This document shows positions 1-827 of a DNA stretch of 64,000 nucleotides, one piece after another; the stretch's first letter is position 1; every line of letters starts with the position of its first letter. Made by a program: the position numbers and the translations under genes. Location of the stretch: assembly GCF_009914755.1 (NCBI RefSeq), contig NC_060944.1; one strand, given 5' to 3'. The stretch is from the human T2T-CHM13v2.0 reference genome, Homo sapiens. The notes beneath the pieces were generated by a model, which was not told the DNA's origin, searched no databases, and saw nothing but the letters and a program-made list of their open reading frames with translations.

Positions 1-237
1 ATCCCATCATATTTACAGGTCCTCAAGGAGAGAGAATTATACAGGTTGTATATATAGGGCAGAAATCTTGCAGGCCATCTTAGAATTCTGTCTACTCCCC
101 AAACAACATAGCAAATCATAAGTAGGGGAGATGTGTTTCACTTGTAGGCCTTCCCACACCCCATGCAGGCATTGTCCCATGGTTTTGCTACCTCTGAAGA
201 TTGGCAAGATCATGAACAAAAAGTGGGCCCATGCCTG

Positions 238-310
238 GCTTCTGTAATGTAGTGGTTATCACATTCGCCTCACACATGAAAGGTCACCAGTTTGAGACCG
301 GGCCAAAACA
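238..310 (+). pseudogene. Degenerate tRNA-Val(CAC) copy
   Basis: The 73-nt GCTTCTGTAATGTAGTGGTTATCACATTCGCCT-CAC-ACATGAAAGGTCACCAGTTTGAGACCGGGCCAAAACA aligns with human tRNA-Val-CAC; anticodon at 271-273. About six CpG->TpG/CpA changes, including B-box GTTCGA->GTTTGA; acceptor stem mispaired. Confidence 0.9.
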
Positions 311-391
311 CGAGATTTTCCCCCTAAATTTAGTGAGTTTAATCGAGGTTGGAAACAAACAGAAAACTAGTTAAACCTGTGCCTACATTTT

Positions 392-685
392 GGCCGGGTG
401 TGGTGGCTCATGCCTGTAATCCCAACACTTTGGGAGGCCGAGGTGGGCGGATCGCATGAGATCAGGAGTTTGAGACCAGCCTGGACAACATGGTGAAACC
501 CTGTCTCTACTAAAAATACAAAAATTAGCCAGGCATTGTGGCACATGCCTGTAATCTCAGCTACTTGGGAGGCTGAGGCAGGAGAATCACTTGAACCTGG
601 GAGGCAGAGATAGCAGTGAGCTGAGATCATACCATGGCACTCCAGCCTGGGCGACAGAGTGAGACTCCACCTCAAAAAATTAAAA
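392..685 (+). mobile_element. Full-length Alu (AluS-like)
   Basis: GGCCGGGTGTGGTGGCTCA start, two arms, A-rich tail. Confidence 0.95.
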
Positions 686-827
686 AACAAAAAGTGGACC
701 AATAGTGTCCAAAATCCATTTTGCATCCACTGCCCAATTCTCAGAAATATTATATATTATCAGAAATAACCAGAGTTGGCTCTCCAGACAGATAAAGCCC
801 TAGTCGAGGTTGACCACTGATGGGGCT

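What the first reader, a model, noticed from the sequence alone, without database searches (positions are those of the whole stretch)
215..703. Pre-tRNA-Val + spacer + Alu apparently retrotransposed as one unit inside a shared 18-bp TSD
Seen: AACAAAAAGTGGGCCCAT (215-232) and AACAAAAAGTGGACCAAT (686-703) are 16/18 identical. They enclose a 5-nt leader GCCTG, a tRNA-Val(CAC) without CCA, a trailer with TTTT at 316-319, about 80 nt of unique spacer, a full Alu and an A-tail. The Alu has no TSD of its own at its 5' edge. Inference: L1 machinery copied an unprocessed Pol III transcript that began at a tRNA gene, read through its T4 terminator and continued through a downstream Alu. That would be a tRNA-promoter-driven Alu source element, a natural tRNA-7SL chimeric SINE. 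Template switching during reverse transcription is an alternative.
Basis: partly seen in the sequence, partly recalled or inferred. Interest (0 to 1): 0.8.

Follow-up and report, generated by a model that had tools for sequence, protein, structure and literature searches.

The report
Pre-tRNA-Val fused to Alu retrocopy
An unprocessed valine tRNA transcript and a complete Alu were copied into chromosome 20 as one piece, most likely because the copying enzyme jumped from the Alu RNA onto the tRNA transcript, and several other human loci show the same build.

Summary
A 16/18 direct repeat (215-232 / 686-703) encloses a 5-nt leader, a decayed tRNA-Val(CAC) without CCA, an 81-nt trailer, a full-length Alu and an A-rich tail. 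The Alu has no flanking repeat of its own.

The "unique spacer" is not unique. It is the 3' flank of a tRNA-Val(CAC) gene family on chr1 (11 copies, 89-93% identical). Homology to all 11 copies runs from about the leader and stops exactly at 391, the end of a second T4 run. All 11 copies then continue with non-Alu sequence.

So the 5' half is a Pol III read-through pre-tRNA that ended at a backup terminator, joined to nucleotide 1 of a separate Alu RNA. It does not favour a tRNA-driven tRNA-Alu co-transcript. No daughter copies exist.

Pattern scans of the same genome found at least four more pre-tRNA/Alu chimeras with shared flanking repeats:
- Lys-TTT.
- Leu-TAA.
- Asp-GTC, inserted inside an older Alu.
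- Tyr-GTA, still carrying its intron.

Two of these have an identified extant donor gene, and neither donor has an Alu behind it.

I found no description of pre-tRNA/Alu chimeras in the papers I could search. Verdict: a new variant of L1-mediated chimeric retrocopies, of moderate interest.

The parts
215..232 (+). 5' copy of the target-site duplication, AACAAAAAGTGGGCCCAT
   Evidence: family D5. 16/18 identical to 686-703. 0/5000 shuffles reach this.
233..237 (+). 5' leader of the pre-tRNA (GCCTG), which puts the presumed Pol III start site about 5 nt upstream of the mature 5' end
   Evidence: Homology to the chr1 loci starts at window 236-240. One chr1 paralogue, L012, has GCCTGTG in front of its tRNA; this is weak support only.
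238..310 (+). Decayed tRNA-Val(CAC) body, no CCA (annotated pseudogene TRV-CAC14-1)
   Evidence: 61/73 identical to the intact chr1 tRNA-Val(CAC) copies L009 and L012. 2 of 9 CpG sites kept. ARAGORN finds none. No Rfam tRNA hit.
311..391 (+). 3' trailer of a read-through pre-tRNA. The first T4 is at 316-319 and was read through. The trailer ends in a second T4 at 388-391.
   Evidence: 89-93% identical to the 3' flank of 11 chr1 tRNA-Val loci. Homology ends at 391 in all 11.
392..673 (+). Full-length Alu, starting at Alu nucleotide 1
   Evidence: Rfam Metazoa_SRP matches at 393-509 and 528-675. Same 5' end as the 14 other near-full Alus in the window. 4/23 CpG sites kept; 4.6% non-CpG divergence from the window-majority consensus.
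674..685 (+). A-rich tail, AAAAAATTAAAA
686..703 (+). 3' copy of the target-site duplication, AACAAAAAGTGGACCAAT

Best explanation
Window 233-685 is one L1-mediated insertion made from two separate RNA polymerase III transcripts.

**Proposed sequence of events**
1. The L1 ORF2 protein nicked the target at the A-rich start of AACAAAAAGTGG. It primed on the A-tail of an Alu RNA and copied it to its very 5' end.
2. Instead of stopping, the reverse transcriptase jumped onto the 3' end of a second RNA and copied that to its 5' end too.
3. The second RNA was a primary, unprocessed transcript of a tRNA-Val(CAC) gene of the chr1 family. It still had its 5' leader, had no CCA, and carried an 81-nt trailer. 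The trailer exists because Pol III read through a weak first T4 and stopped at the next T4.
4. Second-strand synthesis then created the 18-bp target-site duplication.

**Outcome.** The product is a dead pseudogene. The tRNA part no longer folds or scores as a tRNA, and no copies descend from it.

**Shown**
- The anatomy of the insertion.
- The donor family.
- The exact ends of homology.
- The absence of an Alu at all extant donor loci.
- The recurrence of the same build elsewhere in the genome.

**Inferred**
- That the join was made by template switching, rather than by RNA ligation before reverse transcription.
- That L1 was the enzyme.
For: **1. One flanking repeat encloses both parts, and none encloses the Alu alone**.

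**2. The 5' half has exactly the limits of a Pol III transcript.**
- Homology to the 11 chr1 tRNA-Val loci begins at window 236-240 and ends at 391, the last T of CATTTT. In 11 of 11 loci the sequence then diverges into AGACCTC..., not Alu.
- The chr1 copies remain alike among themselves both upstream and downstream of these limits. They are therefore DNA-level duplicates, and only the window copy is cut to transcript size.
- T>=4 runs occur only about once per 130 nt downstream of the donors. A junction at arbitrary position would fall at the end of such a run about 1% of the time.

**3. The Alu begins at its nucleotide 1**.

**4. Both halves are equally decayed**.

**5. The same architecture recurs.** In each case the build is a 3-6 nt leader, a tRNA without CCA, a trailer ending in a T-run, a full Alu, an A-tail and a shared flanking repeat.
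- L016, Lys(TTT): repeat AATACAGGCAGG, 12/12; 0/2000 shuffles.
- L017, Leu(TAA): trailer reads through a T5 to a second T4.
- L050, Asp(GTC): repeat 12/13, inserted inside an older Alu whose sequence resumes after the insertion. This acts as a built-in empty site.
- L051, Tyr(GTA): still carries its intron; repeat 13/13; 0/2000 shuffles.
- Sources.

**6. Two further chimeras have identified donors, and neither donor has an Alu.** For L017 the donor is L025 on chr6. For L051 it is L076 on chr8, with a matching intron. In both, homology ends at the T-run and the donor continues with non-Alu sequence.

**7. Published background**
- L1-mediated chimeras are explained by template switching, and U6/Alu chimeras are reported as rare (PMC4476161; passages).
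- Alu/L1 and tRNA/L1 chimeras have been catalogued (PMC13174262; abstract, passages and section 12).
Against: - **First terminator.** The extant chr1 copies have a long T-rich tract (about 20-40 nt) behind the tRNA, where the window has only T4. Pol III would hardly read through such a tract. The actual donor must therefore have had a short tract, or the tract was shortened during or after copying. No extant copy with a short tract was found.
- **T4 efficiency.** In vitro, a canonical T4 allowed only very poorly represented read-through (PMC3141230, passage).
- **Target site.** The site reads CATG/AACAAAAAG, not a clean TT/AAAA endonuclease motif.
- **Donor identity.** The window spacer is about equally distant (89-91%) from both chr1 subfamilies, which are 91% alike to each other. 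The true donor is not identified and may be lost.
- **Ascertainment.** The four extra loci were found with a pattern that demanded a T-run directly before the Alu. Their T-run junction is therefore by construction. Only their shared flanking repeats, leaders, intron and donor comparisons are independent evidence.
- **Missing test.** No outgroup genome was available to show that both parts arrived together.
- **Limit of sequence evidence.** Sequence alone cannot separate template switching from ligation of the two RNAs before reverse transcription.
Confidence: 0.72

Rival explanations
1. Co-transcript. At a donor locus an Alu sat directly behind the tRNA-Val trailer. Pol III started at the tRNA promoter, read through both T4 runs and the Alu, and L1 copied this single RNA. 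That would make it a tRNA-driven Alu source element.
For: One flanking repeat encloses both parts. A sense Alu could in principle have inserted at the donor with AAACCTGTGCCTACATTTT as its own target-site duplication, which would place it right behind the T4 (read; inference). The true donor is not identified.
Against: - 0 of 11 extant paralogues have an Alu there.
- It needs read-through of two T4 terminators.
- It needs the roughly 1% coincidence that the Alu's 5' end abuts a T-run.
- No daughter copies carry the spacer-Alu junction.
- In two analogous chimeras the extant donor genes lack an Alu.
Confidence: 0.05
2. Two independent insertions. In one version a tailless pre-tRNA retrocopy arrived first and an Alu later landed exactly at its 3' end. 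In the other, the Alu arrived first and the tRNA piece later landed exactly at the Alu's 5' end. Either way the 16/18 repeat would belong to only one of the two events.
For: - Pre-tRNA retropseudogenes without A-tails are reported in the human genome (Schmitz 2004, as cited in PMC4476161, passage; the paper itself was not held).
- TTTT/AACAAAAAG would be a good L1 endonuclease site (read).
Against: - An Alu landing at TTTT/AACAAAAAG would leave a copy of its target-site duplication between the T4 and the Alu's 5' end. None is there.
- No repeat brackets 233-391 alone or 392-685 alone.
- The decay of both halves is equal.
- The same exact abutment recurs at four other loci with shared flanking repeats. 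One of these lies inside a host Alu that shows a single insertion.
Confidence: 0.08
3. RNA ligation before reverse transcription. The pre-tRNA 3' end and the Alu RNA 5' end were joined into one RNA, as has been proposed for U6/L1 chimeras, and that RNA was then copied by L1.
For: The DNA outcome is identical to that of template switching. [quoted passage not shown]
Against: Inference from general knowledge, not tested here. A primary Alu transcript carries a 5' triphosphate and a Pol III terminated RNA carries a 3' hydroxyl. Those are not the ends used by the tRNA ligase invoked for U6 (recalled). The Alu is complete to nucleotide 1, which fits a jump at the end of the template.
Confidence: 0.08
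4. DNA-level event. A fragment of a chr1 tRNA-Val locus was captured as filler DNA at the 5' junction while an Alu insertion was being repaired, or was moved there by small-scale duplication.
For: 5' junctions of L1-mediated insertions are resolved by host repair (general knowledge).
Against: The captured piece has precisely transcript limits, from about 5 nt upstream of the tRNA to the end of a T4. L051 carries a pre-tRNA intron with trailer limits at a T-run as well. A random DNA fragment would not respect these limits repeatedly.
Confidence: 0.04

Closest known systems
Bipartite chimeric retrogenes formed by L1 template switching (U6/L1, U3/L1, 5S/L1, 7SL/L1; Buzdin group). Features as summarised in PMC2104539 (passage).
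   Same: - The 5' part is a full-length copy of a small cellular RNA.
- The two parts are joined directly, in the same orientation.
- There is a poly(A) at the 3' end.
- One pair of short direct repeats flanks the whole.
   Different: - The 5' partner is an unprocessed pre-tRNA with leader and read-through trailer. The RNA classes listed there are mRNAs, rRNAs, snRNAs, transposable elements and 7SL, with no tRNA.
- The 3' partner is a complete Alu, not a randomly 5'-truncated LINE.
U6/Alu and U6atac/Alu chimeras (PMC4476161, passage)
   Same: A Pol III small RNA ending in a U-run, fused upstream of an Alu inside one target-site duplication.
   Different: - Different 5' RNA.
- Those are described as very rare and not reproduced experimentally.
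- Here at least five pre-tRNA examples were found in one genome with a narrow pattern.
tRNA/LINE-1 chimeras (Law and Burns 2026, PMC13174262; passages; n = 21)
   Same: tRNA-derived sequence co-inserted with an L1-mobilised element inside one target-site duplication.
   Different: Those are mostly tRNA halves, antisense to the partner, with LINE-1 as the partner, and are explained by twin priming. Here the tRNA part is a whole pre-tRNA with leader and trailer, in sense orientation, with Alu as the partner.
Tailless pre-tRNA retropseudogenes (Schmitz et al. 2004; known here only through its citation in PMC4476161)
   Same: A nuclear, unprocessed pre-tRNA served as template for L1-mediated reverse transcription.
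   Different: Those stand alone, without an A-tail. Here the pre-tRNA rides on an Alu that supplies the A-tail.
[quoted passage not shown] 2011, PMC3141230; abstract and passages)
   Same: The 5' half is a fossil of exactly such a transcript: a weak first terminator passed, with the stop at the next T-run.
   Different: That work describes RNAs, not their genomic retrocopies.

Membership tests
L1-mediated bipartite chimeric retrocopy (template-switch type) | One pair of short direct repeats flanks the whole two-part insert | tested here: met
   215-232 / 686-703, 16/18. 0/5000 shuffles reach this.
L1-mediated bipartite chimeric retrocopy (template-switch type) | The 5' part is a full-length copy of a cellular RNA | tested here: met
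   Homology to the donor family runs from about the leader to a T4 terminator.
L1-mediated bipartite chimeric retrocopy (template-switch type) | The two parts are joined directly, in the same orientation, with a poly(A) at the 3' end | tested here: met
   T4 at 388-391 abuts Alu nucleotide 1 at 392. Both are on the + strand. A-rich tail at 674-685.
L1-mediated bipartite chimeric retrocopy (template-switch type) | The 3' part is a 5'-truncated copy, truncated at a random site (feature list in PMC2104539) | tested here: not met
   The Alu is complete from nucleotide 1. The switch happened at the end of the template.
L1-mediated bipartite chimeric retrocopy (template-switch type) | L1 endonuclease motif (TT/AAAA) at the insertion site | tested here: inconclusive
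   The site reads CATG/AACAAAAAG: A-rich start, but no TT before it. In PMC13174262 only 40% of Alu/L1 chimeras have the motif.
L1-mediated bipartite chimeric retrocopy (template-switch type) | Both parts arrive at the same time in the phylogeny | not testable with these tools
   No primate genomes are held. The flanks are unique in the human genome, so there is no paralogous empty site. Equal decay of both halves is only indirect support.
tRNA-promoter-driven Alu source element / tRNA-Alu co-transcript | A donor locus with the tRNA trailer followed by a same-strand Alu | tested here: not met
   0 of 11 chr1 loci; all continue with AGACCTC....
tRNA-promoter-driven Alu source element / tRNA-Alu co-transcript | Daughter copies that carry the same spacer-Alu junction | tested here: not met
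   The spacer search gives 12 places: the window itself and 11 donor-type loci.
Functional tRNA-Val gene | Cloverleaf fold, and a score above the tRNA model threshold | tested here: not met
   ARAGORN finds 0 genes. No RF00005 hit at E<=1. 7 of 9 CpG sites mutated.
Tailless pre-tRNA retropseudogene | A target-site duplication flanking the tRNA-derived piece alone, with no A-tail | tested here: not met
   No direct repeat brackets 233-391.
tRNA/LINE-1 chimera (Law and Burns 2026) | LINE-1 3' partner; the tRNA part is typically a half and antisense | tested here: not met
   The partner is an Alu. The tRNA is whole and in sense orientation.

The most novel reading that the evidence does not exclude
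Pre-tRNA/Alu chimeras may be a distinct, recurrent and so far uncatalogued class of human retrocopies.

- **Mechanism.** When ORF2p finishes an Alu RNA in the nucleus, it can jump onto nascent or primary Pol III transcripts that still carry their leader, intron and U-run trailer.
- **What each copy records.** Each copy is a DNA fossil of a primary tRNA transcript. It records the start site, terminator read-through and unspliced introns as they were at the time of insertion.
- **Consequence for annotation.** Because a tRNA carries its promoter inside, such copies can seed new tRNA loci. Several still score as intact tRNAs: L016 Lys-TTT at 61.7 bits, and L050 and L052 Asp-GTC.
Probability: 0.45. 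Interest if true: 0.6.

Novelty: new variant of a known kind. Interest (0 to 1): 0.45.

Why it matters
- **A mechanistic question is settled for this locus.** It is not a natural tRNA-7SL composite SINE or a tRNA-driven Alu master copy. It is a one-off chimera of two Pol III transcripts.
- **It bears on where Alu reverse transcription picks up bystander RNAs.** Chimeras that contain leaders, trailers and an intron can only come from nuclear, unprocessed pre-tRNAs. That fits template choice at the integration site.
- **It warns that some entries in tRNA gene and pseudogene lists are retrocopies riding on an Alu.** TRV-CAC14-1 in this window is one; the Lys-TTT and Asp-GTC loci found here are others.

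Tried and rejected
- **Paralogous empty site.** I searched the own genome with the flanks 40-232 and 686-900. Both are unique, apart from one 38-nt hit on C7, so there is no empty-site proxy.
- **An Alu-only target-site duplication.** None found.
- **Donor of the L016 Lys-TTT chimera.** None of the 19 other Lys-TTT-like places has the trailer TCCTATTTT. Of the 19 loci, 13 had a recognisable B box and were compared; 6 did not and were left out. The donor is not identified.
- **Pattern scans with larger gaps.**
  - Gap 41-70: 4 hits, 0 tRNA.
  - Gap 71-100, strict: 1 hit, not tRNA.
  - Gap 71-100, relaxed: 13 hits. These are the window itself, 9 Alu left-monomer-like pieces, 2 chance matches and 1 (L070) not re-found by my script.
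- **Hits set aside.**
  - L018: an Alu with its own repeat GACTTTTT, a chance match.
  - L052: Asp-GTC plus Alu in the A-tail of an older Alu. The repeat cannot be judged; 59/2000 shuffles reach it.
  - L059: a truncated Ile-AAT-like piece; unresolved.
- **Donor flanks for L050.** The search found about 22 tandem chr1 copies matching from leader to trailer end.
- **Literature.**
  - Not held: Buzdin 2003, Schmitz 2004 and Garcia-Perez 2007. Whether any of them lists a tRNA-Alu chimera could not be checked.
  - Full-text searches that found no description of pre-tRNA/Alu chimeras: (0 papers).
  - Supplementary tables of PMC13174262 were not opened.
- **Alu subfamily.** No Alu consensus library is on hand, so the subfamily was not assigned by any tool. 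Only a crude majority consensus of the window's 15 Alus was used.
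Full report
**1. The observation**

Reading window 1-1200 confirms every element at the stated coordinates.
- AACAAAAAGTGGGCCCAT at 215-232 and AACAAAAAGTGGACCAAT at 686-703, 16/18 identical. The repeat finder reports the pair as family D5.
- Leader GCCTG at 233-237.
- A tRNA-Val(CAC)-like body at 238-310, followed by CGAG rather than CCA.
- TTTT at 316-319.
- A stretch up to 391.
- An Alu from 392. Rfam gives two Metazoa_SRP matches, 393-509 and 528-675.
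- A short A-rich tail at 674-685.

Position 392 is Alu nucleotide 1. The 14 other near-full-length Alus in the window start at the same alignment position with the same GG(C/T)(C/T)(G/A)(G/A)(G/A) start (33 BLAST hits, of which the 15 covering the query to within 5 nt of its 5' end and 9 nt of its 3' end were kept).

The repeat is unlikely to be chance.
- 0 of 5000 shuffles of the 5' flank reach 16/18.
- With a local score, 1 of 2000 shuffles reach the observed value.
- As a genomic control, 19 of 4000 random placements of the same geometry in the window reach 16/18, presumably through repeats.

No repeat pair brackets the Alu alone.

The tRNA is a wreck. ARAGORN calls nothing and Rfam gives no tRNA hit even at E<=1.

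**2. The spacer is not unique**

A search of the window's own genome with 311-391 returned 12 places. One is the window itself. The other 11 are on contig C1: seven near 16 Mb (L002-L008) and four between 121 and 149 Mb (L009-L012). Identity is 89-93%.

In each of these loci the matching stretch lies directly 3' of a tRNA-Val(CAC). ARAGORN calls an intact tRNA-Val(cac) in L009-L012 and none in L002-L008, which are decayed copies.

BLAST of window 101-800 against the 11 loci shows homology from window 236 or 240 up to exactly 391 in all 11, in two pieces for L008. The multiple alignment shows the following.
- Upstream of the leader, the window shares nothing with the chr1 copies, although these stay alike among themselves.
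- After CATTTT (CACTTT in seven of the copies), the chr1 copies all continue AGACCTC.TCAATCTA..., while the window continues with the Alu.

The chr1 copies are therefore DNA-level duplicates of a locus. The window copy is cut to the size of a transcript: about 5 nt before the tRNA to the end of a T4 run.

Within 311-391 the T4 at 388-391 is the first T>=4 after the one at 316-319. Downstream of the donors, T>=4 runs occur about once per 130 nt. An arbitrary breakpoint would coincide with the end of such a run roughly 1% of the time.

**3. What this means for the mechanism**

Within the human genome the answer is clear. The donors are tRNA-Val-CAC genes, but 0 of 11 have an Alu there, and no other locus carries the spacer-Alu junction.

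The 5' half ends where Pol III would stop, and the 3' half begins where an Alu RNA begins. The simplest reading is two independent Pol III transcripts joined head to tail during one L1-mediated reverse transcription: Alu first, then a jump from the Alu's 5' end to the 3' end of a read-through pre-tRNA.

Read-through pre-tRNAs with long trailers are documented for human Pol III (PMC3141230; abstract and passages). The same paper found that a canonical T4 lets little through in vitro.

**4. Age consistency**

- Against a crude majority consensus of the window's 15 Alus, this Alu keeps 4 of 23 inferred CpG sites and differs at 11/237 (4.6%) of the other positions.
- The tRNA keeps 2 of the 9 CpG sites present in the intact copies L009 and L012.
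- The spacer has 4/72 window-private states.

Both halves have decayed alike, as expected for one event. This is only indirect evidence.

The spacer is about equally far from the two chr1 subfamilies (89-91%), which are 63/69 alike to each other. The true donor is not pinned down.

**5. The same build elsewhere**

I scanned the own genome for a tRNA B-box, a gap, a T-run and an Alu 5' end.

*Scan results*
- Strict pattern, gap 10-40: 3 hits, against 0 for the reversed control.
- Relaxed pattern (T3, R at the first base), gap 10-40: 15 hits, including those 3.
- Gaps 41-70 and 71-100, strict: 4 and 1 hits, none a tRNA.
- Relaxed pattern, gap 71-100: 13 hits, including the window itself as a positive control (L071). 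The rest are 9 Alu left-monomer-like pieces, 2 chance matches and 1 not re-found by my script.

*Four hits are clear pre-tRNA/Alu chimeras with a shared flanking repeat*
- **L016** (C1, 204.74 Mb): Lys(TTT). Leader TGA, trailer TCCTATTTT, repeat AATACAGGCAGG 12/12, 0/2000 shuffles. ARAGORN and Rfam (61.7 bits) still call the tRNA.
- **L017** (C11, 113.57 Mb): Leu(TAA). Leader ACCTGT. The trailer passes a T5 and ends at a second T4. Repeat AGGCAAGAACC / AGACAAGAACC; 24/2000 shuffles reach the scored repeat (AATAGGCAAGAACC / AAAAGACAAGAACC), which contains this core.
- **L050** (C5, 142.93 Mb): Asp(GTC). Leader TGTCG, trailer GCAGCAGTCCTTT, repeat 12/13, 6/2000 shuffles. It is inserted inside an older Alu whose sequence resumes after the insert, which is a built-in empty-site proof that the tRNA and Alu went in together.
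- **L051** (C8, 66.12 Mb): Tyr(GTA), still carrying its intron. Trailer ACACCTTTGTTT, repeat AAAAAGCCAGTCC 13/13, 0/2000 shuffles.

*Other hits*
- L052 (Asp-GTC, in an A-tail) is ambiguous.
- L059 (truncated Ile-AAT-like) is unresolved.
- The remaining hits are antisense Alu pieces or chance. L018 shows what an ordinary Alu with its own repeat looks like.

*Caveat.* The patterns required a T-run before the Alu, so that feature of the extra loci is by construction. The shared repeats, leaders, intron and donor comparisons are not.

**6. Donors of the extra chimeras**

- **L017.** It matches a single tRNA-Leu(TAA) gene on C6 (L025; 87% over query 6-121 of 122). Homology runs through the T5 and stops at the second T-run. 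The donor then continues ATTTTTTAAAAATACG, not Alu.
- **L051.** Its best match is a tRNA-Tyr gene on C8 with the same intron (L076; 89% over 7-98 of 105). The trailer corresponds to the donor's GAGACACC...TTTTGTT, minus a C-run. The donor then continues GCTTTGAACC, not Alu.
- **L050.** It matches about 22 tandem Asp-GTC copies on C1 from leader to trailer end. Their downstream sequence could not be fetched.
- **L016.** The donor was not identifiable.

Counting the window, three chimeras now have donor information, and in none does the donor carry an Alu.

**7. Comparison with what is known**

- The Buzdin-type bipartite chimeras are defined, as summarised in PMC2104539 (passage), by four features: a full-length cellular RNA at the 5' side, a randomly 5'-truncated element (mostly LINE) at the 3' side, direct same-sense fusion, and flanking direct repeats. 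The RNA classes listed there are mRNAs, rRNAs, snRNAs, transposable elements and 7SL, with no tRNA.
- U6/Alu chimeras are mentioned as very rare (PMC4476161, passage).
- Law and Burns 2026 (PMC13174262; abstract, passages and section 12) report tRNA/LINE-1 chimeras as new. There are 21, and they are mostly tRNA halves in antisense orientation. They also report 452 Alu/LINE-1 chimeras. Their pipeline looks only 5' of LINE-1.
- Four full-text searches found no paper describing pre-tRNA/Alu chimeras.
- Buzdin 2003, Schmitz 2004 and Garcia-Perez 2007 were not held, so a listing there cannot be excluded.

The locus works like a template-switch chimera. It departs from the family's usual description in two ways: its 3' partner is a complete Alu, and its 5' partner is an unprocessed pre-tRNA.

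**8. Weak points**

- The extant chr1 copies have a long, variable T-rich tract where the window has only T4. The donor must have been a copy with a weak terminator that is no longer seen, or the tract shrank.
- The insertion site is not a textbook endonuclease motif.
- No outgroup genome could be examined, and the flanks have no paralogue.
- Sequence cannot tell a template jump from RNA ligation before copying.

**9. Verdict**

- The single-unit reading is supported.
- The tRNA-driven Alu source element is not supported.
- The best explanation is a template-switch chimera of a read-through pre-tRNA-Val and a full-length Alu.
- It is a dead end in itself, but it is one of at least five such loci in this genome.
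- I rate it a new variant of a known kind, of moderate interest.

Noticed in passing
L016 (G000:C1:204738494-204738900 region), L050 (C5:142925677 region), L052 (C9:87056140 region): Retrocopied pre-tRNAs riding on an Alu still score as intact tRNAs. Lys-TTT scores 61.7 bits on Rfam. Both Asp-GTC copies are called by ARAGORN. Some entries in tRNA gene lists may therefore be such retrocopies.
   Followed up: partly
L062-L068, L073, L074 (hits): Nine loci where an Alu left-monomer-like piece is followed, after an A-rich stretch and a T-run, by a full Alu. They could be free-left-monomer/Alu chimeras or nested insertions. Flanking repeats were not examined.
   Followed up: no
L059 (G000:C17:8112226 region): A 5'-truncated tRNA-Ile(AAT)-like piece with trailer ATGGTAAAACTTT, fused to a full Alu and sitting directly behind the A-tail of another Alu. 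No clear flanking repeat.
   Followed up: partly
L051 versus L076 (G000:C8 66.12 Mb and 66.54 Mb): The Tyr-GTA/Alu chimera lies only about 417 kb from its likely donor gene on the same chromosome.
   Followed up: no
L002-L012 (chr1 tRNA-Val loci), just 3' of the tRNA: The T-rich terminator tract differs greatly in length and interruptions between paralogues. It behaves like an unstable microsatellite, which bears on terminator strength over time.
   Followed up: no
G000:C1:160577884-160733107: About 22 tandem tRNA-Asp(GTC) copies spaced about 7.4 kb apart, all 90-92% identical to the L050 retrocopy from leader to trailer end.
   Followed up: no
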